Under the pieces are notes generated by a model. It had not been told where the DNA came from, ran no database searches, and was given only the letters and a program-made list of their open reading frames with translations. A program made the position numbers and the translations under genes. Shown here piece after piece: positions 6,966 to 47,715 of a stretch of 64,000 nt of DNA. Origin of the DNA: Octopus vulgaris (taxonomy: Eukaryota); NCBI GenBank assembly GCA_951406725.2, contig OX597825.1, positions 64,170,001 through 64,234,000 on the forward strand, written 5' to 3'. Position 1 is the first letter of the stretch. Every line of letters begins with the position of its first letter.

Positions 6966-7154
6966 TGTATAGACACCGGGATTACGTATATAAATATTGT
7001 AATAACACTTTCAAGCATAGAACAAACCATGTTCCTGGTGGATATATAATAGATACATATGTGAGAAATAATTGCGATTTAGTTGCATTAGGTACTTAAA
7101 TTGAAGCACCAAGTCAGTCCGGCATTATCCGCACAGCTCGCAGTAACGTGCATC

Positions 7155-19086: not shown

Positions 19087-20262
19087 TATTAGGCCAACCC
19101 ATAAATAATGCGGGTTTTTTTATATTTCTTTTATTTTTCAAAATTATGATAAACAATGATTTGTTTTTTTAATCTAAAATATACTCTCCTTCATTTTCTA
19201 TTATGTTGTTCCATCTAAATGCAGCGAGCTGGCAGAAACGTTAGCACGCCGTGTGAAATGCTCAGCGGTATTTCTTCTGCCGCTACGTTCTGAGTTCAAA
19301 TTCCGCCAAGGTCGACTTTGCCTTTCATCCTTTCGGGGTCGATAAATTAAGTGCCAGTTACGCACTGGGGTCGATGTAATCGACTTAATACCTATGTCTG
19401 TCCTTGTTTGTCCCCTCTGTGTTTAGCTCCTTGTGGGTAATAAAGAAATAGGTATTTCGTTCTGTCGTTACGTTCTGAGTTCAAATTCCGCCAAGGTCGA
19501 CTTTGCCTTTCATCCTTTCGGGGTCGATAAATTAAGTACCAGTTACGCACTGGGGTCGATGTAATCGACTTAATACCTATGTCTGTCCTTGTTTGTCCCC
19601 TCTATGTTTAGCTCCTTGTGGGTAATAAAGAAATAGGTATTTCGTCTGTCGTTACGTTCTGAGTTCAAATTCCGCTGATGTTGACTTTGCCTTTCATCCT
19701 TTCTGGGTCGATTAAATAAGTGCCATTTACGCACTGGGGTCGATATAATCGACTTCATCCTTTGGTCTGTTCTTGTTTGTCACCTTTGTGGGTAGTAAAG
19801 AAATAGATATTACCTCTGTCTTTACGTTCTGAGTTCCAATTTCGCCGAGGGTGACTTTGCCTTTCATCCTTTCCGGATCGATAAATTAAGTACCAGTTGC
19901 GGACTGAGGTCGACCTAATCGACTGGATGCCTCCCTAAAAGTTTCGGGTATTGTGCTTAAAGTAGAAAAGAATATTCTTCCATCTATCTGGTAGACTTGC
20001 CAAGTCCCTCTTCCAAAATTCACTTGTCCGTGACAAAAAATATTCCTATGGTAATGTTCTGAACTCGTCTACAGAATTCATATTTTTTTCTGTCCGAATG
20101 AATATGAAACCTGTAGAATAAATATTTATCAGGTGGAGCAATGTCCGGCGGATATGGTGGGTGAGGCATTGTTTCTCATTCAAACTGCTCCGGCCTTTAG
20201 AATATCACAGTAACTGGCAGAGCATTGACCTGATGGAAGAAACGCGTTTCGTCTTGATACCA
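19087..20262 (-). mobile_element. mariner transposon 3' half (D..D catalytic region) interrupted by a SINE array
   Basis: Minus translation FHQVNALP...MPHPPYPPDIAPPDKYLF...LPDRW|NNIIENEGEYILD* (cf. HDNARPH, HPPYSPDLAPSD). TIR-like tattaggccaacccataaataatgcgg at 19087. Confidence 0.85.
19221..19975 (+). mobile_element. Nin/Deu-domain-like tRNA SINE, four-unit tandem array
   Basis: Head gcgagctggcagaaacgttagcacg plus a B-box-like gagttcaaattcc and the core gtcgactttgcctttcatcctttcggggtcgataaa, repeated four times at ~180 bp period. TSD ttccatcta at 19209 and 19978. Confidence 0.88.
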
Positions 20263-21907
20263 ATAATGGTCGTTATATGTGTGTGTATATGAGTGAAATT
20301 CAATATGCATGTATGTGTGTGAATTAAATATATATATAGGAATATGACAAATTTCTATACAGCTTCATGTATTTTGAGAGAGTGAAGAAGTTATTCGATT
20401 GGTTTTCGTGTCATATGATTTTATTAACTCGAAGTGAAAGAAAGACATTCGAGTGGTAAGGAATAAATTTACCATCTAGAGGAATGTCGCTAATTCATAC
20501 CGCCACCTAAATTGAAATGATGATGTAAGCTTTGTTGTACACTATTACACTATTACAATATTAATAGATTTGTTTGTCAATCAACACCACACTATTTTTA
20601 CCGTATTACATATCGAAATTCTTTCACTCTGTCTCTCTGTCTCTAGGCTATCTTATATACTTTCTGTCTATTACTTTTCCCATGTATTTATCGGCACTCC
20701 AATTCCTCCGTGTCATTTTGTTTCAATCTGAAAATAGCCATTTTTATAGTTGTCATAATGATTTAAATGCGATACGAAAATCAAATCCGGGCAAATGCAC
20801 TTTTACCGAAATACTCCTTAGATCTGAAACATTGATAATAACTCTTTATGAAGTTGAAGAACTCATTTGACTAGCTAATCTAATTAACAGAGCTTTGTTT
20901 CTAATAGCCTATTGCCATAGCATAGATTAATATTTAACTATTCGTAATATTCCTACAGTATTATATTGTGGTCTTGTTACTTATCCGTATTAATCATTAC
21001 CCATTCTAAGCAAATTAAAATCAGAAATGTATCCTTCTGAAGGCTAGATGCCAATAGAAAAGACGTTTAATGCAAGTATTTATTTACGATTGATGCAAAG
21101 ATTTCATTATTGTATCAAGTTTAGTAACACATGGATAAATTAATTTTTAAAGTGCTTTGCGATATTTGATCAAATACTACAGTTGACCAGATATAATATG
21201 TGGAAGATCTTAGAACTGATCAACTTTCACAGTTGATCAGATAATATATCGAAGAGCTTTGAATGCACTTTAATATCACTAAAGAAAATTTTGATTATAA
21301 GCATATGCATGGATAATTTTAGTGTCAGAGATTTGATTCAAATGTCCGCCTGATTTAATTATTTGCTGTGCCTTTGCTGCATGTATCTGTGTAATATTTG
21401 TAATTATTCTGCTTTGTATATATTCATTTGTACTTATTTAAATTTATTAATTTCATACATATTCATCCATCGACCTTCATATCAGTACGTATTTCCATTT
21501 CTCTATGTCTCTGTTACTCTTTCATATGAGTGTGAATGTGCGTATGTTTGTGTGTAAATATATATATACATATTTAATATGTAAATATATAATGTCTGGG
21601 TATGTCTGTCTGTATCATCAGTAACATCATCATCCGCATTATCATCAGCATCATCATCATCATAATCATCATCATTATCATCATCACTATTATCACCATT
21701 GTGATCACAGCTCCCTATATCTGCCTACTTTTTGTCTTCGTCCATTATAGTGTAGCAAATGATCTCGGTATTATAAGTATGGTGTCTCAGTAACATTTTT
21801 GCATGTTATAGAGACTTCTGTCTGTATGTATTTCGGTTATGTGTACGTCTGCATAATTATCGATTAGACCCAGAGGACCTATTTAATGAGGAGTGTTTCT
21901 AACTATA

Positions 21908-22980: not shown

Positions 22981-23212
22981 AGGCGGCGAGCTGGCCGAAT
23001 CGTTAGCAGGCCGGGCGAAATGCGTGGCCGTATTTCGTCTGCCGTTACGTTCTGAGTTCAAATTCCGCCGAGGTCGACTTTGCCTTTCATCCTTTCGGGG
23101 TCGATAAATTAAGCACCAGTTACGCACTGGGGTCGATGTAATCGACTTAATCCGTTTGTCTGTCCTTGTTTGTCCTCTCTGTGTTTAGCCCCTTGTGGGT
23201 AGTAAAGAAATA
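22981..23212 (+). mobile_element. Nin/Deu-domain-like SINE, full length
   Basis: Same head and core as 19221. 12-bp TSD ggtaattcgttt at 22967 and 23213. Confidence 0.92.
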
Positions 23213-23650
23213 GGTAATTCGTTTGCTGTAGTTTCTTGAAAGCAAGAATTGGCCTCTCAAAACATAACTCCCAAATGCACCGAATACCAGGAATTATCTG
23301 AAAATTGTGCTAACACTTTTATCAGAGTTTAAAATCTTTCTTACCTGAGTAACAAAAATTGCAGATTCTCATGAATGATACAGAGAAACTTTTACTAACG
23401 TAGAATTGGATGGTAGAACTTCTTTAATTTCATTTCTAACACTAATAATTTTTTCATCGAAATCTGAATGATCAGATGGAAGTTGTATTCTGTGAAACAT
23501 AAAGTGAAAACCAACACCTACGATACAAAATAATACGAAATCCATTTTCCTATATATTACTCTCGGTTCGAATATGTAGCCAAACTTTCATATGTTTGCG
23601 TGTGTGAGTGTGTGTCTGTGTCTGTCTGTCTGTCTGTTTTTCTGTGTGAA

Positions 23651-31867: not shown

Positions 31868-33180
31868 GTTTCTTCCAGAACCTTCCAAATGTATATTACT
31901 GCATACCCCTCCTGCCTTCTCTCCAGGGAGTAGAGTCTTAGCTGTTTCAGCCTCTCCCAGTAGCTGAGCTTTTGCAACGTGACGATCTTCGTTGTGAAGC
32001 TTCGCTGGAATACCCCAAGGTCCGCTGTTAATTTTACACTGTTGGGAGACCCCAGCTCGGGGCAGTAGTCTTCTCTCTGATCTTATACGTTCTAAGGATC
32101 CATCTACCCAGTCGTCTGCACTTTGTGGCCATGGGATTCAAGCCTCTTCTCCTTATCTCCTCAAAGACATACAGCATCTCGAAAGAGTCCAGAGGCTGGC
32201 TACCCGCATGGTTCATGGTCTCAAAAATTTGTCCTACGAAGAAAGACTGAGGACGCTCGACCTTTATTCTCTTGAAAAACGCCGCCGCCGTGGTGATCTC
32301 ATTCTCGCCCACAACATCATAAGCTGTTCTTCACTCCTGCTCCAGAGCGTCGGCTGCGGGGTCATTCCGAAAAGCTCTACCTGCGACGATTTCATCTTAA
32401 TCGAAGGAGAGGAGCTTTCTCCGTCCGGGTTGCGGATCCGTGAAACAAGCTGCCAGACGAGATGTTGAAGATGCCGACGACCGCTTTGTTCAAAGCCTCC
32501 CTGGACCTCAAGTGGCCTGAACTCTTTACATGAACACCACCCTGTACTTAACTCCATGTACCCCTACATGGCCTTGCTATTTGCTTTTGAGCCAAATTAA
32601 CTAACTAACTAACTAACTATCCTTGTAATGTGCACCTGGAAAGCGGTATCATCATTCATGTCGATAACGAGGTCACTCACTGATTTAGGCTCTGGGATTG
32701 TAATCCCCTGTGGACCAGTGTACCCTGTAAGTTTTATATTCAGTTTTGGACGCTGGTAGCGCAAGGCTTTGAATTTTTCAGCCTTAAACTGCATATTATT
32801 GTTCTCAGCCCGTCTGCGAATAAAGTCCAACTCCTGCTGCAAGTGTGCAACATCACTGGGGTTCTGTATTTTCTGCGCGACTTTCGTATCGTCTGTGTAA
32901 CTAGCAAGAGTGTTTATCCGGGTAGCTGCGGACGTATCTGAGGGGGACCCTATGAAAAGCAGTGGTATTAACACAGTGCCATATGGAACACTGCTCACTG
33001 TTTTTGTTTTCTTTGAGGTGGCTCCATTGGACACTAATACCTGACTTCTATTTTTCAGAAAGTTATGTAACCACTCTCCAAGTTTTCCAACTATGCCAAG
33101 ATAACACATTTTGTAGCATATCATACCATGCTTCACTTTATCAAAAGCTTTTGCAGAGTCAAGGTATACTACGTCCATAT
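31868..33180 (-). mobile_element. CR1-clade LINE RT remnant, interrupted by an opposite-strand CR1
   Basis: [32 protein letters not shown]; continues ATKCRRLGRWILRT...QRSFT...LSYWERLKQLRLYSLERR. Confidence 0.9.
32131..32618 (+). mobile_element. 3' fragment of a second CR1-type LINE with (TAAC)n tail
   Basis: SPYLLKDIQHLERVQRLATRMVHGLKNLSYEERLRTLDLYSLEKRRRRGDLI. Tandem TAAC tail at 32598-32618. Removing the insert restores ITRMATK in the host LINE. Confidence 0.9.
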
Positions 33181-33188
33181 TTCGGATT

Positions 33189-39514: not shown

Positions 39515-40200
39515 AATACATATGTAGTACGGCATGGTAGACGCTACATAATGTTTCTCCTTTCGTTCGGATATTTTTAACCAGATACTATATTACAGCA
39601 TGGATAAGGAAAATCGAATCACTGAAACTGGCAACCGAGTACTTGCAATACAATGTGTCTAACGTGCACTCAAATCGGCAAATAACAAGTAAAACTCGCT
39701 GCACTCATATACTAAGATATATACAATCAAATGACGTGAGCAAAGATTTCCCAAAACATTCGGAGCCATTTAATTGTGTTCTGTAATTTTGATTCATTTT
39801 CGTGCAAAGATTGTTTTACATACATATTACTTAATCTCAGCCAATTTATCCGACAGTATATTCTCAAATATCTAATTCACTCGTGTTCCGTTACTCGTTG
39901 AAAACTTTTTCTTTTTTTTTTTTTCCAATTAAGCAATTTCATTTGGTCAGTAAGTTTCTTGGTTGATAAATCAATGATTACAAGAAAATCGATTTTATTT
40001 TATATTTTGATGTTATTACCGCTTTATCAATAGGATTTCTCACGTATGTACATGTACTTCCGTTGTGTTCGGTATATGTTTGCGTGTGCTTCAGAAGTGT
40101 CATTCTACATTATTCGGTATAGATAGCTATAGCTCATCCAAATCTATTTATGCATATATATCTGTGTATTTAATCTATGTATCTAATCTAGCTGCCCATT

Positions 40201-40272
<72 letters not shown>

Positions 40273-40682
40273 ACACACGCATAAACACATTGTGCGAACA
40301 TACATATACATATATACTTGTATGTATCTATGTATATCTATAATATGTATAAATGTGCGTGTGTGTATGATGGGCGATTTAACTATAGAAGGAATAATTT
40401 TCTATATTTTTAGGTTACTGTTATAGCTATTATTTTCATTAGGAAGTTTCTTTAATGAGGTTAAATCTTGTTTGAGGGAAAGTCAAACAACGCTGCTATC
40501 TATTGATTTTCTATTTCTGCTCAATTGGGAAAATGATCTCAGTAAGCACGTACTTCAAAACTGACATTAGACAACAAGTGTACAAACAACAAGAGTTTAA
40601 AAATATAGAATAATAAGATGATGAGGATGAGGATGATGATAATAATAATAATAATAATTAAGTAATGAAAATAATTATGATA

Positions 40683-40684
<2 letters not shown>

Positions 40685-40752
<68 letters not shown>

Positions 40753-40785
40753 CATCATTATTATTATTATTATCATCATCATTAC

Positions 40786-40816
<31 letters not shown>
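40685..40816. repeat. (TTA)n microsatellite
   Basis: Directly visible; a second tract lies at 41041-41180. Confidence 0.95.
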
Positions 40817-41040
40817 TTTTTTTTTTTTTCTTCTTTAAAATTTGCTTCCATTTCTTGCCGAGTGTCTTCCCGACTCCTAGGGCAAAGAAACTCATAGTAT
40901 ACACTGGTAGGCCATTAAACCAAACTCAATATTTCCTTAATTTTTTTATTTTTTTTAAGTTGAATTAAAATACATGAGCAGCAACAGTTCTCACATCGAC
41001 AATGCTCTTCTCAATACGTGTGATGTACCAGTTCAGACAA
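40817..41040 (-). mobile_element. 3' end of a second Dong-like family
   Basis: Minus strand 41032-40991 reads TGTSHVLRRALSM*, homologous to GTAHILRRTLSI*. It is followed by a distinct 3'UTR, an A-run and (TAA)n. Confidence 0.75.
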
Positions 41041-41061
41041 TTTATTATTATAAATTTATTA

Positions 41062-41114
<53 letters not shown>

Positions 41115-41141
41115 CATTATTATTATTATCATCATTATTAT

Positions 41142-41176
<35 letters not shown>

Positions 41177-41180
41177 TTAT

Positions 41181-41455
41181 TCCTTCGTAACACAGTATAG
41201 GTTAAAATGCACCAGAAACTTTAGACATCTGTCAAGTCGCAACAAGGACCTCAGACAGATAATACTTTCCATAAGATATGCGCTCTGCTCGATAAGTCTG
41301 CTTTTTGTAAGGCATCAATCTTTGCATGGAATTCCCAGTTGCCTTAAGAAATCTTGATATTTCAATAGGATTGAGCCCGACGTTCCGATCACCAGTGGTA
41401 TCACTTTTACATTACCTTCTCGCATTCCATACAGTCTTCCCATTTCCACTTTAGG
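41181..41455 (-). mobile_element. 3' end of a third Dong-like family
   Basis: Minus strand reads KVEMGRLYGM..NVKVIPLVIGTSG...LGIPC/IDALQKADLSSRAHILWKVLSV* (stop 41253-41251), matching the REL C-terminus. The 3'UTR ends in gaaggAATAATACTACT. Confidence 0.8.
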
Positions 41456-41634
41456 AGTACTCGGTCAGGCTCGAGGTGATCCAGAAGACAGCATTGTTGG
41501 GTACAGCTCGCATTCTAAGGAGAGTATTGTCTCTTTGAGTCACAGAAGTCACTACTTCAGAGCTTTGGTGATTTGTTATTGACTGCTGTCAAGTAAAGAA
41601 TAGCCGGTAATTAAGAACTATCCGAGTCTTTCAG
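41456..41634 (+). mobile_element. 3' end of a fourth Dong-like family
   Basis: 41464-41538 reads VRLEVIQKTALLGTARILRRVLSL*. A ~95 bp distinct 3'UTR follows, then AATAACAAC/(AAT)n. Confidence 0.85.
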
Positions 41635-41716
41635 AATAACAACAACAACGACAACGTTAATGATAATAATAATGATACTAATAATAATAATAATAATAAT
41701 AATGATGATGATGATG

Positions 41717-41798
<82 letters not shown>

Positions 41799-41809
41799 CT
41801 ACACTTTAC

Positions 41810-42332
41810 TACCAATGCCCTGGTGCAGTACCAGACAGTGACTGACATGGCTTCTGATCATAACTGATTGGAAATTTTATCATGTATATGTTTTATTTGT
41901 TATTAAAGATATGTCACAGCAAATATTCTTGCTCAGTACCAAAGATTTGCTTCTCAGTTCTTTTGTCTTAACCAGTTGAGCATGTTCTTTAGTCGCCGAC
42001 TATATGTGCATCACTGATCATGATCAGAAGTAGCAGGGTGCATCATAGCCATTTGTTAAGAGGAATTCGTTGAGGTTTGAATAATTTCCCTCTGGAATCA
42101 CGGGTTTTTCATCCAGTGTCCTTAAACAACCATTATTCAGTGACCATTTGAGAGGGATGGGCTACTAGATCGAAGAAAATTATAAATGAGCCATAACTAC
42201 AAGGTCATGCGTTGTCTATCTTGATATGAGATCACCATGACGCGCAAATGTGGATGTAAAGCATAATGGTTATACAGTGCTTCTTATATTATACCCAGTG
42301 TCACTTTGATGGCATTCACTGATCTCTCATTC
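41810..42332 (+). mobile_element. Non-coding repeat between (AAC/AAT)n tracts, probably a long 3'UTR of another TAA-targeting element
   Basis: Complex sequence bounded by microsatellites and ending ...ctctcattcAATAATAA. No ORF is seen; identity is inferred from context. Confidence 0.5.
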
Positions 42333-42341
42333 AATAATAAT

Positions 42342-42410
<69 letters not shown>

Positions 42411-42412
<2 letters not shown>

Positions 42413-43630
42413 CATAATAGGTATCAACACTCTAGTCGTCCCGGTTATAGGTTACAGCTACAATATTCTTAACTGGTCTCTAAATGAGCTAATCAAAATA
42501 GACAGGGAAACAAGAAAACTAATGACAGGATTTATGATGCACCACCCAAAATCTGACAGAATGGTTACATATACAATGCATCGAAGGTGGTAGGGACTTT
42601 ATACAGCTAGAAAATTATTACAAAATAACCACCATAAGACTACAGAAATACCTTCTTCAGACACAAAGAAAACTAATACAAATAGCCACAAATCACGAAC
42701 AAACAAAAATTATTTTCAATCTTTAAGAAAGCTGACACATACAAATAAGAAATCGTAGTACCTAACAACGAATAAGATAAAGAAGAAACAACTGAAGTAC
42801 AAATTAGAACTAGAACAGTAGCGGATCATGATAAAATGATGGCAAGAAAAGTCCCTTCATGGAAAATAATGGGTTTAACTAAACAGAATGAAGCAGACAA
42901 AACAATATCCGAACGATGGCTGAGAATCTCAGGATTCAAAGCAGAGACTGAAGGATTTTTTTAATTGCATCACAACGTCAGAGCCTTCCCAACAGAAAAT
43001 ACCAAAGACATGTAATGAAAAGACATACAACTAGTACCTGCAGATATGAGGAGATGGAGAAGAAACAATAAATCATATTGTCTCTGGCTGTCTAGTACTG
43101 GTTAAGAAAGACTTTATTCATAGACACGATGGAGCTGGGACCTACATACACTGGAAACTATCGCAACACTATGGTATAAGAACAGAAAAAGATGGTTACA
43201 GAAAATGAGAAAGCAACAATTTTATGTGATATGCCAATATACAGAGATAGAGAAATTAAGGCCAATAGGCCAGATATAGTTGTCAGAGATCATGAAGAAA
43301 AATACTAAAAGAAATGGAGAAAATTCCAAAATTAAAAGATCTGGAAATATAAGTACTCGAATATAGAGTCTAAAAACAGAAACAAATCCTATCATAGTAG
43401 GCGCATTAGGTATTATAAAAAGAAAGACTCAGATAACAAGATTCAGAAACACAAAGACTAAGAAGTATATATATAAATACTGAAAATAGCACTACTATAC
43501 ACCGTACAGTTTCTACGTAAAATACTTTCAATACAGTAAAATAAGAGCTTCACACAAACAACAGCACACATCCAAGGCACACAGAATAGTAGTGCAGTGA
43601 AAGCACGTCATAAAAATAAGACTACTGGAT
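42411..43630 (+). mobile_element. Older degenerate 5'-truncated copy of the same Dong-like family
   Basis: Colinear with 45213-46543 (IIGINTL.VPVI.YSYNILNW, MHHPKSD, RPDIVVRDHEE, same 3'UTR ccaaggcacacag...gtgaaagcacg...actactg). Many indels and stops. Starts right after (AAT)n. Confidence 0.92.
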
Positions 43631-43645
43631 GATAATAATAATTAA

Positions 43646-43825
43646 TTTTAGAACACCTTTTCTAATTTAGGTTTTGACAGACATTCTCTAGAACAATACT
43701 CTGTGCAAAATCAAATGTATGGCACCCTAGTCCCAACACCAAGTTGAACTTCTAACTTGTTCTTTTGAGGTCTCGGGCTGGAACTTGGAGCCAACTTGTA
43801 TAAATACAACGCAAACGCCAAACAC

Positions 43826-43826
<1 letters not shown>
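43646..43826 (+). mobile_element. Probable 3'UTR fragment of another Dong-like family
   Basis: Lies between the 3' end of the 42411 copy and the long (AAT)n. Contains tgaggtct..ggg...gaacttgga, resembling the start of the UTR of the 41181 element (tgaggtccttgttgcgacttgac). Ends aaacacATAATAAT. Confidence 0.5.
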
Positions 43827-43895
<69 letters not shown>

Positions 43896-43913
43896 GTAAT
43901 AATAATAATGATG

Positions 43914-43956
<43 letters not shown>

Positions 43957-43973
43957 TAGTAATAATAATAATG

Positions 43974-44040
<67 letters not shown>

Positions 44041-44064
44041 TAATAATAATACTAATAATAATAC

Positions 44065-44143
<79 letters not shown>
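43826..44143. repeat. (AAT)n microsatellite, ~320 bp
   Basis: Directly visible; abuts the Dong-like 5' truncation point. Confidence 0.97.
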
Positions 44144-44146
<3 letters not shown>

Positions 44147-46440
44147 GTCACCCAGGCACTGCAAAGACTAAGCAACTGGAAGGCACCTGGGCATGACAAG
44201 ATCCCCAACTTCTGGTTGAAATATCTAACAGGAATGCACAAAAAGCTGGCTGAAAACTTTAACAACGTACTAGCAGAGCCAGAGACAATGCCTGAATGGC
44301 TCACGAAGGGGAAAACCATCTTAATTCCCAAATCAAATGAAACAGAAAAACCAGAAAACTACAGACCAATAACCTGCCTCCCTACTATGTTCAAGGCATT
44401 TACTGCAGTGATATCACAAAGGCTGAACAAGCACCTGGACGAAAACAAACTGTTCCCAGAAGAGCAGAAAGGATGCCGCAAAGGCTCATATGGCTGTAAA
44501 GATCAACTAATGATTAATAAAGCCATAACTGAAGACAGCCACAGAAAGAAGAAAGGCCTCAGTATGGCCTGGATTGACTACAAAAAGGCGTTTGATAGCA
44601 TCCCCCACACATGGATCCTCGAAACACTAGCCATTAACAAAGTAGCACCAACAATCATAAAATTCATAGAGCACTCTATGAATAAATGGCAAACAGTCCT
44701 ACACCTCCAAACAAAAGAGGGACTCATGAAAACCAAAGACATCCCCATTAGAAGAGGAATATTCCAGGGAGACACGCTCTCTCCACTCCTTTTCTGCTTG
44801 GCACTGTCACCTCTATCTGATATGCTAAATAGAACTGGATGCGGATATAAATGTTACGGCAAAACGATCAGCCACCTTTTATATATGGATGACCTAAAAC
44901 TATACGCTGCAAATGACAAACAGCTGGAAACACTATTAAAGACAGTTCATGGATTTACCAAAGAAATAGATATGAAATTTGGATTAGAAAAATGCGCCAA
45001 AGTAACCATGAAAAGAGGAAAACTAGTTAAGAGTAACAACATCACACTAGATAAAACCAATGAAATAAAAGAATTAGACCAAAGCCAAACTTACAAATAC
45101 TTAGGAATCCATGAACTAGATAAGACACAACACACACAAATGAAAGAGAAAATAAAAAAAGAATATTATAGACGAGTTAGATCAATACTAAACACAGAGC
45201 TCAATGCTAAAAACAAGATAATAGGTATCAACACTTTAGCTGTCCCAGTTATAAGTTACAGCTACAATATCCTTAACTGGACACGAAATGAACTGACCAA
45301 AATAGATAGGAAAACAAGAAAAATAATGACAGGATCTAGGATGCATCACCCAAAATCTGACATAGAAAGACTATATATACAACGTATGGAAGGTGGTAGA
45401 GGCCTTATACAACTGGAAAACTACTATAAAATAACCACCATAGGACTGCAAAAATATCTACTTCAGAAGGAAGGAAAACTGATCCAGATAGCGGCAAAAC
45501 ACGAGCAAAACAAAAAACTGTTCTCAGTATTTAAGGAAGCTGACAAATACAAACAAGAAATCATACCACCTAATAAACATGAAGAAGAAGAAGAAGATGA
45601 AGAAACAACAAAAGCCATAAAACAAATGAAATCCAAACTAAAAACAGAACAGCAACGAACCATGATAAAACGATGGCAAGAAAAGCCCCTTCATGGTAAA
45701 TACTGCACTAAACTAAACGCAAAAGAAATAGACAAAGAAAAATCCCAGCAATGGTTGAGAAGCTCAGGACTCAAAGCAGAAACAGAGGGATTTTTAATTG
45801 CAGCACAAGACCAAAGCCTCCCCACCAGAAATTACCAAAAACATGTAATGAAAAGAAATATTACAAGTAACTGCAGAATATGTGGAGATGGACAAGAAAC
45901 AATAAATCATATTATCTCTAGCTGCCCAGTCCTGGCTAAGAAGGAATATATTCACAGACATGACAGAGTTGGAACCTACATACATTGGAAGCTATGCCAA
46001 CATTATGGAATAACAACAGAAAAAAGATGGTATAGGCACACACCAGAAAAGGTCACAGAAAACGAGAAAGCAACCATACTCTGGGATATGCCGATACACA
46101 CAGATAGAGAAATTAAGGCCAACAGACCAGATATAGTTGTCAGAGATCATGAAGAAAAAAATGCTTTTTAATTGATGTATCAATACCGGCAGATGACAAC
46201 GTGTCTCTAAAAGAAATGGAGAAACTCTCAAAATACAAAGACCTGGAAATAGAGGTAACTAGAATGTGGAATCTGAAAACAGAAACAATTCCTATCATAG
46301 TAGGTGCATTAGGCATGATAAAAAAATATTCAGACAAATACATAACAAAAACACCAGGACTTACAAACACATATAACATACAGAAAATTGCACTACTAGG
46401 CACTGCCCACATCCTACGCAGAACACTTTCCATACAATAA
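44144..46440 (+). pseudogene. RT-REL polyprotein ORF, N-terminally truncated, with one 1-bp frameshift in the A-run at 46155-46161
   Basis: ORFs 43796..46171 and 46201..46440 join into HEEKKCFLIDVSIPADDNVSLKEMEK if one A is added to the A7 run. No other stop is seen. Confidence 0.9.
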
Positions 46441-46543
46441 CCATCAGAGCATCACAACAAATCACAGCACATACCCAAGGCACACAGAGCTGCGCTCGGT
46501 AGTGAAGTGAAAGCACGCTATAAAAATAAAAATAAAACTACTG
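44144..46543 (+). mobile_element. 5'-truncated R4/Dong-clade non-LTR retrotransposon (RT + CCHC + restriction-like endonuclease), near intact
   Basis: RT motifs KAPGHD, NYRPITCL, EEQKGCR, WIDYKKAFDS, GIFQGDTLSPLLF and YMDD (44882-44893). Zn knuckle CRIC..ETINHIISSC. REL motifs RHD, RPDIV, IDV and KLSKY. C-terminus QKIALLGTAHILRRTLSIQ* at 46440, then ~100 bp 3'UTR. Flanked by (AAT)n on both sides. Confidence 0.95.
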
Positions 46544-46568
46544 AATAATAATGATAATAATAATAATT

Positions 46569-46648
46569 AGAAGAAGAAGGAGAATAAGAAGAAGAAGAAC
46601 AACAACAACAACAACAAAAAGAGGAAGGGGAAGAAGAAGAAGAAGAAG

Positions 46649-46679
<31 letters not shown>

Positions 46680-46725
46680 TGAAGAAGAAGAAGAAGAAGG
46701 AGAAGAAGAAGTTGAAGAAGAAGAT
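46569..46725. repeat. (GAA)n-rich microsatellite
   Basis: Directly visible. Confidence 0.93.
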
Positions 46726-47715
46726 AAGGATCTTTATATTTGGAAAATAAACATACACGTACATGAATACAAAGGTGTGTGTATTTATTGCGTACGTTTG
46801 CAAAGGTGCAGTACAAGGGATTGAAGACATACAAAAAAAAAATAGCACAAGAAAATAATCGATTCATGTTAGGATTTCCGACAAATTGACCTTGAGGACG
46901 GCCCACTACTTTTCAATTTTCTGTTTTCTGTTTGCTCTCAACATTTTTAATTCCTGCTTGCTTCGAACTGCAAACTTCTTTCATAGTCACAACATTAGAC
47001 TGTCGCATTCACGTGAATCTCCGCACCTTCAGCAAATTTTCATCAAATATTCTAGTGGAAGGTATATGAGGAATTTGAATGTCAAAAAATATCTTTTCAT
47101 CACTAGATAAAATAATTGATTATAGACTCGCTATTTTTGACAGCGAATTATATATGAATTATCGCATAAAAACTTTTATGTGAGATATGATATCATTTAT
47201 GTACCAAGAAACCAGATAGCACGTACTAATAAAAATATGTCCTACGCAAACCTCTACTTGTGATGCCATATAAATAATACCCATCAATCATATATTTTAG
47301 CGTTCCCCACTTACGGGCCAACTTGCTCTAAAATAATATCCGAGATTTTCATTACACGTTACCAAACACACATTTTTTATGTTAGTTTTCTTCAGGGACA
47401 TATTGCCAAAAGTTAGAATCGGTTTCCACTCATGAAGTGTTATGGGTAAATAAGCCCACTTATTTGGTAATGATATAATCAAGCACAAAATAAAAAGAAT
47501 TATAGCGGAGACTGAAAGTCAATTCCCTAGAAAAATATTCAGTACTCTGCTGATTATCAGAAATGAAGTTCAAAACTGATTTCGAATTCCCCACATCTAG
47601 AAAAGAAAAAAAAATGCCAGGCAACCAATAAATAATATAGGTATTCTTATAATACATACATACCTACATACATACATACATACATACATACATACATACG
47701 TATATATATATACAT

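What the first reader, a model, noticed from the sequence alone, without database searches (positions are those of the whole stretch)
40620..46570. Multi-family stack of TAA-targeting R4/Dong retrotransposons in one microsatellite locus
Seen: about seven insertions within 6 kb, most separated by (AAT)n tracts. Four carry clearly different versions of the same REL C-terminus, each with its own unrelated 3'UTR: GTAHILRRTLSIQ*, GTARILRRVLSL*, RAHILWKVLSV* and GTSHVLRRALSM*. There is also an older copy of the first family and two UTR-only pieces. Every 3' end runs directly into AATAAT-type repeat on its sense strand. Known: the Dong lineage of the R4 clade targets (TAA)n. Inference: several divergent Dong families share one target, and each insertion leaves TAA on both sides, regenerating the landing pad. 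The result would be a self-perpetuating retrotransposon sink. Three of these ends are invisible in the ORF track.
Basis: partly seen in the sequence, partly recalled or inferred. Interest (0 to 1): 0.8.

Follow-up and report, generated by a model that had tools for sequence, protein, structure and literature searches.

The report
Jumping genes stacked in TAA repeats
Several families of a known kind of jumping gene that lands in TAA repeats have piled up behind one another here, an expected result of that targeting, and their tail ends share a small folded RNA signal that may be what their protein grips.

Summary
The stack is real. Five REL-type C-termini (G, C, A, B and E, an older copy of G) are the top 5 of 127,888 positions in the window. 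F is a sixth Dong-like 3' end; D is unassigned. All six orientable pieces read TAA on their sense strand. G's family is very abundant and ends in (AAT)n in three public runs. In relatives from other hosts, 34 of 74 truncated 5' edges follow TAA (null 34 of 3,730), and 9 of 32 sit directly behind another Dong-like 3' end, several of another family. Stacking is thus a general result of known Dong TAA targeting; this scan noted similar nesting on other DNA (e1-7884193). Corrections: B and C join head-to-head without TAA, tract polarity flips twice, A has a poly(A) tail, and the UTRs are not unrelated. They share a two-helix hairpin 23-49 nt before the tract, with covariation across 20 relatives, which my limited searches did not find described. 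Host-wide clustering and a named phylogeny could not be tested.

The parts
40617..40660 (+). GAT then (AAT)6 tract, plus-strand polarity; left edge of the nest
40681..40829 (-). (TAA)n tract on the minus strand (about 45 units) and the 15-nt poly(A) tail of A; first polarity flip lies at 40660-40681
40830..41045 (-). A: about 215-nt 3' end of a Dong-like family; last 16 codons (one in-frame stop), stop at 40993-40991, UTR with hairpin at 40886-40853
   Evidence: matrix score 25.8, 12 of 16 residues as in P0004; top RNA-model hit of the window, 27.7 bits, E 9e-5
41042..41182 (-). (TAA)n plus (ACT)11 tract, minus polarity, between B's 3' end and A's 5' edge
41183..41452 (-). B: decayed 3' end of another family; two collinear REL pieces in different frames, stop at 41253-41251, hairpin at 41259-41227
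   Evidence: 15.4 and 13.4 bits; matrix 24.8; hairpin 0 of 200 shuffles
41453..41634 (+). C: 3' end of a third family, joined head-to-head to B without TAA; stop at 41536-41538; weak hairpin at 41558-41591
   Evidence: 24.8 bits; matrix 57.2; hairpin 8 of 200 shuffles; junction
41635..41803 (+). mixed AAC/AAT/GAT tract ending in (CAA)17
41803..42332 (+). D: 530-nt non-coding piece ending in (AAT)n; family not shown; orientation inferred from the tract only
   Evidence: no REL hit, no hairpin, no Rfam family or tRNA
42333..42409 (+). (AAT)n tract, about 25 units
42410..43627 (+). E: older 5'-truncated copy of G's family with frameshifts, stops and internal deletions; hairpin broken by a deletion
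43628..43642 (+). short GAT/AAT tract between E and F
43645..43825 (+). F: UTR-only 3' end of a further Dong-like family; hairpin at 43760-43793
   Evidence: 0 of 200 shuffles; rank 2, E 1.9, with model R1 but not listed with R2; best UTR match is L017, 33 of 42 columns
43826..44143 (+). (AAT)n tract, about 105 units
44144..46543 (+). G: young 5'-truncated copy; RT, CCHC knuckle and REL endonuclease, one frameshift near 46154-46165, stop at 46438-46440, hairpin at 46470-46504
   Evidence: RVT_1 E 5e-33; motifs; 53-56% to the best near-length homologues
46544..46567 (+). (AAT)n tail of G, followed by (GAA)n at 46569-46724

Best explanation
The locus is a nest built by repeated, separate insertions of at least five R4/Dong-like families (A, B, C, F and G with its older copy E) into (TAA)n. 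Shown: REL-type ends, TAA-type tracts on the sense strand, 5' truncation, different degrees of decay, the same arrangement in other hosts. Inferred from established knowledge of REL elements: the endonuclease nicks the TTA strand, the nick primes reverse transcription at the RNA's TAA-ended 3' end, copying stops early, the tract is split so that TAA remains on both sides, and slippage lengthens it again. Each insertion therefore renews the target for any TAA-targeting family. One later or concurrent event (local inversion of the A-B block about 0.45, priming from both ends of one break about 0.3, deletion between opposed clusters about 0.25; my estimates) made the B/C head-to-head join. The shared UTR hairpin is most likely the RNA element that the element's protein binds (inferred by analogy with the R2 3'UTR core).
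For: Five termini far above all other positions. Six of six pieces oriented by codons or hairpin have TAA on the sense strand (chance 1/64). TAA-type tracts lie before G, E, A, F and, as (CAA)n, before D. G's family: 82,984, 42,164 and 14,798 contigs laid in X1, X2, X17, depth rising towards the 3' end, 3' loose ends reading (AAT)n in all three; a truncated copy preceded by AAT repeats in X5 (45683) and 4 contigs in X17 (46318). Relatives: 41 of 67 termini have a TAA-type or A tract within 420 nt; 34 of 74 truncated 5' edges follow 3 or more TAA units against 34 of 3,730 null windows; 9 of 32 of those lie behind another Dong-like UTR against 3 of 572 random windows; two families in one locus in L026, L032, L039, L040, L071. 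Dong targets (TAA)n in most insects, molluscs and cnidarians (PMC7998251, passage; PMC3812793, passage).
Against: B and C have no TAA at their 5' edges. D is unassigned. 40 of 74 relative 5' edges scored no TAA (some are visible artefacts such as L040 and L078, some distant relatives, some probably true misses), and 26 of 67 termini had no tract within 420 nt. Read laying showed only 22 of about 4,077 loose ends, most of them diverged element sequence, so 5' TAA bias in the host itself is not measured, and X1 may be the source of the window. No named Dong, R4 or Rex6 sequence was available for the tree. A possible lone, old REL end at 21882-21793 is not part of any stack.
Confidence: 0.8

Rival explanations
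1. The TAA tracts are only templated 3' tails, and the stack arose in one or a few events by template jumping between RNAs or by re-mobilisation of a read-through RNA, not by serial targeting.
For: The B/C join has no target sequence; R2 shows low-level template jumping in vitro (PMC10499050, passage); an X1 contig joins two G-family parts across four TAA units.
Against: The pieces differ widely in decay (G nearly intact, E 74.6% to G, B broken). In relatives, 23 of 32 truncated copies have TAA upstream with no recognised Dong-like UTR before it, as targeting predicts.
Confidence: 0.11
2. Chance pile-up of very abundant repeats in a gene-poor region; TAA plays no part in site choice.
For: G's family is extremely abundant; the window was chosen for its cluster, so the uniform-placement P of 2.4e-4 is weak; TE hotspots are reported in O. 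vulgaris (PMC13282606).
Against: No unique DNA lies between the pieces, orientation follows tract polarity in 6 of 6, all long TAA runs of the window lie here, and adjacency in relatives is 9 of 32 against 3 of 572.
Confidence: 0.06
3. Misassembly across long microsatellites has joined unrelated element ends.
For: Long tracts (up to 318 nt) are assembly weak points; no read or contig was laid across the tracts or the B/C join.
Against: The B/C join has no repeat that could mislead an assembler; equal stacks stand in independent contigs of other hosts.
Confidence: 0.03

Closest known systems
Dong (Bombyx mori), DongAg, DongBg and ostracod Dong1/2, R4 clade (PMC3812793, PMC7998251; passages read)
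   Same: RT followed by REL endonuclease; (TAA)n target; named close homologues come from Exaiptasia and Pediculus, species whose elements PMC7998251 lists as R4/Dong-like (same accessions not shown)
   Different: Here at least five families share one tract, with two polarity flips; the N-terminal Myb-like domain and 5' ribozyme cannot be seen because all copies are 5'-truncated
Dong-R4 LINEs of Octopus (PMC13282606, parts 1-2 of 3 read; PMC9115989 and PMC8967140, passages)
   Same: Five recently active Dong-R4 families with 1,129 insertions are reported in O. vulgaris; the window looks like an octopus genome (recalled from its repeats, shown by no call)
   Different: The passages read do not describe TAA-mediated multi-family stacks or a UTR structure; identity of G with those families was not tested
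R2 and its 3'UTR core (PMC10499050, passages)
   Same: Same protein layout (best solved-structure matches, E 1e-55); a small structured part of the 3'UTR is bound by the protein and needed for priming
   Different: R2 targets 28S rDNA and its core is a two-stem junction drawn from distant parts of a 248-nt UTR; the motif here is one compact 34-nt bulged hairpin
Multi-family head-to-tail arrays in self-renewing targets: TRAS/SART in telomere repeats, HeT-A/TART/TAHRE, Alu in Alu A-tails (all recalled, no call)
   Same: Insertion leaves or supplies the target for the next insertion
   Different: Other clades and other targets; this nest is interstitial and REL-driven

Membership tests
R4/Dong non-LTR retrotransposons | RT followed by CCHC knuckle and restriction-like endonuclease | tested here: met
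   G: RVT_1; CX2CX8HX4C, RHD, RPDI, IDV, KLSKY motifs; R2 proteins are the best solved matches
R4/Dong non-LTR retrotransposons | Conserved C-terminus of the clade in the short pieces | tested here: met
   A, B, C, E, G are the top 5 of 127,888 positions; D and F carry no such codons
R4/Dong non-LTR retrotransposons | RT phylogeny with named Dong, R4 and Rex6 | tested here: inconclusive
   Quick tree of 48 rows places G among mostly unnamed relatives with Pediculus and Diaphorina RTs; no named reference or outgroup was available
R4/Dong non-LTR retrotransposons | Single ORF with N-terminal Myb/SANT-like domain; 5' HDV-like ribozyme | not testable with these tools
   G begins at about residue 362 of 1,124 of its best homologue; no 5' end in the window
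Dong lineage (TAA-specific) | (TAA)n at the 3' junction | tested here: met
   All pieces, with the departures listed; family-wide for G
Dong lineage (TAA-specific) | (TAA)n at the 5' junction: G, E, A, F | tested here: met
   junction table; relatives 34 of 74 against 34 of 3,730
Dong lineage (TAA-specific) | (TAA)n at the 5' junction: B and C | tested here: not met
   Direct head-to-head join at about 41452/41453
Dong lineage (TAA-specific) | D is a Dong-derived piece (REL codons or UTR hairpin) | tested here: not met
   only its TAA tail fits
Dong lineage (TAA-specific) | Genome-wide TAA bias and co-occurrence in this host | not testable with these tools
   No genome held; loose-end table cut
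R2 clade | Insertion in 28S rDNA | tested here: not met
   No rRNA match in 40000-47000

The most novel reading that the evidence does not exclude
Dong-like elements across animals share one compact, covarying 3'UTR hairpin (outer helix, A-containing 5' bulge, 6-bp inner stem, 5-nt loop with GG, 1-nt 3' bulge) that is the RNA tag read by their RT-REL protein. A shared tag and a shared target would let families copy one another's RNAs into the same TAA tracts, and the B/C head-to-head join would record two families' RNAs primed from the two ends of one break.
Probability: 0.3. Interest if true: 0.62.

Novelty: new member of a known kind. Interest (0 to 1): 0.36.

Why it matters
The stack itself is the expected footprint of a known targeting rule, useful as a dated series of insertions and as a caution that TAA microsatellites in such genomes are retrotransposon landing sites and poor markers. 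The by-product matters more: a 34-nt hairpin conserved by structure across divergent Dong-like families gives a direct, testable candidate for RNA recognition in the R4 clade, allows UTR-only fragments and dependent SINEs to be assigned, and bears on whether REL elements cross-mobilise.

Tried and rejected
Whole-genome survey: no genome held. D: no match in the rest of the window or in 101 loci beyond weak hits, Rfam, ARAGORN, viral contigs, earlier notes, supplements 1-4 of PMC9115989 (files 5-8 and two oversized files not searched, and the supplement of PMC13282606 not read; they may hold the Dong families). First UTR regular expression was drawn from the window itself, hence circular, and hit only 4 of 41 relatives; replaced by a profile from relatives only. 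Single-sequence folding supports only B (z -2.5) and weakly G (z -1.7), not A, C, D, E, F. RNA models miss C, D, E and rank an unrelated site at 7011-7044 second or third; their hits in 43 loci are nearly all families used in training. Summed contig depth was not used as a copy number. The careful tree did not finish. The stretch left of the nest (40480-40615) shows no REL codons or hairpin. Earlier-note look-ups by place and sequence were empty.
Full report
Observation. The region 40830-46543 holds seven pieces between simple-repeat tracts. To test them I took relatives of the long frame of G (2,542 hits among 8,000 candidates, 120 listed). A profile HMM from 89 of the 120 (those with full C-termini) found G, E, C and B, but scored A at 9.1 bits, under the best null score of 9.9. 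A position matrix from 81 of the 89, tolerant of stops, settled it: G 62.5, C 57.2, A 25.8, B 24.8, E 23.4, next best 0.1 among 127,888 positions. A matches P0004 at 12 of 16 residues. The termini of A, B, C and G share 23-30 of 48 nt, so they are different families; E is an older G (74.6%). G encodes RT, a CCHC knuckle and REL motifs, is 5'-truncated and has one frameshift near 46154-46165; other copies differ there by an indel and P0121 and P0122 cross the stretch in one frame.

A and B lie on the minus strand beside tracts that read ATT on plus; C to G lie on plus beside AAT tracts. B and C join head-to-head at about 41452/41453 with no TAA, and a second flip lies at 40660-40681. A has a poly(A) tail before its tract; B, C and E run into mixed AAT/ACT/AAC/GAT tracts. 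D (530 nt) shows no REL codons, no hairpin, no Rfam family and no tRNA and stays unassigned.

Host-wide evidence. No genome is held. Twenty of 24 listed runs, under 11 organism codes and 12 studies, hold 0.81-0.98 of G's sampled words, including 6-Mb assemblies. Laid on G, runs X1, X2 and X17 gave 82,984, 42,164 and 14,798 contigs and X5 gave 13; depth climbs towards the 3' end as 5' truncation predicts; 3' loose ends read (AAT)n in X1, X2 and X17; an X5 contig starts at 45683 behind AAT repeats, and four X17 contigs do so at 46318. Only 22 of about 4,077 loose ends were shown, so 5' bias in the host is hinted at, not measured; X1 may be the window's source. That the host is an octopus is my recollection of its repeats (about 0.9), shown by no call.

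Evidence from relatives. 79 metagenome loci and 22 loci from prokaryote assemblies (presumably eukaryotic DNA within them; inference) were fetched. Of 67 C-termini in these 101 loci (some loci overlap), the first repeat of 12 nt or more was AAT-type in 23, ATG/AAC/ACT/AGG-type in 11, other in 8 and absent in 25; by a looser rule 41 of 67 had a tract within 420 nt. With three duplicate loci dropped and edges near contig starts skipped, 34 of 74 truncated 5' edges had three or more TAA units just upstream, against 34 of 3,730 null windows; the 40 misses include artefacts and distant relatives. Of 32 such edges with enough flank, 9 lie directly behind another Dong-like 3'UTR, against 3 of 572 random windows tested with the two commonest families. 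L026, L032, L039, L040 and L071 each hold two different families head-to-tail. Many of these loci share the same two families, so they are not independent hosts. AAT-to-ATT flips also occur in L029 and L059. The 'sink' is therefore real as a process and is general.

The UTR hairpin. Pairwise the UTRs do not align, but by eye they share a motif. I picked it by an inner-stem descriptor in 20 of 33 relative representatives (13 left out for a poor hit or duplicate family) and aligned these by sequence. The selected inner stem pairs in 83% of cells (shuffled 52%), which is partly circular. RNAalifold added an outer helix; its four outermost pairs, which were not selected for, pair in 74% of cells against 42% shuffled and 30-50% in slid controls, with 34 two-sided changes against 14. 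In leave-one-out tests 19 of the 20 were recovered with 0 of 60 shuffles; overall 18 of 21 representatives with a tract passed and 5 of 12 without. The window's UTRs were not in the training set: A, B, F and G beat all 200 shuffles, C 8 of 200, E (deleted there), D and the left flank fail (scoring scheme my own). The covariance model makes A the best hit of the window (E 9e-5) but gives only weak hits for B and G, none for C, D, E, F, and a stray hit at 7011; the inner-stem model ranks F second. Single-strand folding is unconvincing except for B. Relatedness among sequences was not modelled. The hairpin assigns F to the Dong-like group and confirms A independently.

Mechanism. Serial target-primed insertion into (TAA)n with renewal of the target is the best reading (0.8). 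The nick, priming and slippage steps are inferred from what is known of REL elements. The B/C join needs one extra event: inversion, priming from both ends of a break, or deletion. The leftover (AAT)6 at 40639 fits the first two. The hairpin's role as protein-binding tag is inferred from R2, whose 3'UTR has a small core needed for priming (PMC10499050, passages).

What is known. TAA targeting by Dong: PMC3812793 (passages), PMC7998251 (passages and figure legends), PMC3774820 (passages). Microsatellite targeting by REL elements: PMC4640811 (passages). Dong in octopus: PMC9115989 (passages), PMC8967140 (passages), PMC13282606 (parts 1-2 of 3: five recently active Dong-R4 families, 1,129 insertions). 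Kojima and Fujiwara 2004 and Xiong and Eickbush 1993 were not read; PMC2887409 and PMC10294476 were seen only in search listings. Searches showed no listing that describes multi-family Dong stacks or a Dong UTR hairpin; I read few of the listed papers, and the library lacks most subscription journals and Repbase reports, so this absence is weak.

Verdict. A real nest of at least five Dong-like families, explained by a known targeting rule and repeated in other hosts: new member of a known kind, interest 0.36, carried mainly by the hairpin and the head-to-head join.

Noticed in passing
window 21882-21793 (-), tract 21614-21700: Possible old, lone REL 3' end (12.0 bits, null maximum 9.9; tblastn E 0.001) followed by a GAT/AAT-type tract; no hairpin found.
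   Followed up: partly
window 32612-33187 (-): Separate RT remnant (RVT_1 E 3e-11) whose motifs look CR1/L2-like (recalled), ending at a (TAAC)n run at 32598-32619.
   Followed up: partly
window 19267-19924 and about 22985-23215: A 185-nt unit in 3.7 tandem copies with a further copy downstream; recalled as an abundant octopus SINE, not verified.
   Followed up: partly
window 46316-46320, runs X1 and X17: Contigs show TAA repeats joined at this place inside G's own coding region, suggesting that copies insert into older copies at a short TAA-like site.
   Followed up: no
L015 10383, L029 9912, L039 6309: One relative family ends consistently in (GAT)n followed by (AAT)n, so part of the tail may be templated by the element.
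   Followed up: no
L092, L094, L099, L101: Distant REL relatives (29-40% identity) in tandem arrays without TAA tracts or the hairpin; another target is likely.
   Followed up: no
L080-L101: Twenty-two loci in bacterial genome records carry these animal-type elements, most likely host DNA in the assemblies.
   Followed up: no
L072 5640-5666 and L075 7945-7973; L020 and L055: Recurring upstream flanks that are not recognised Dong UTRs: another TAA-ended repeat, or paralogous sites, serving as target.
   Followed up: no
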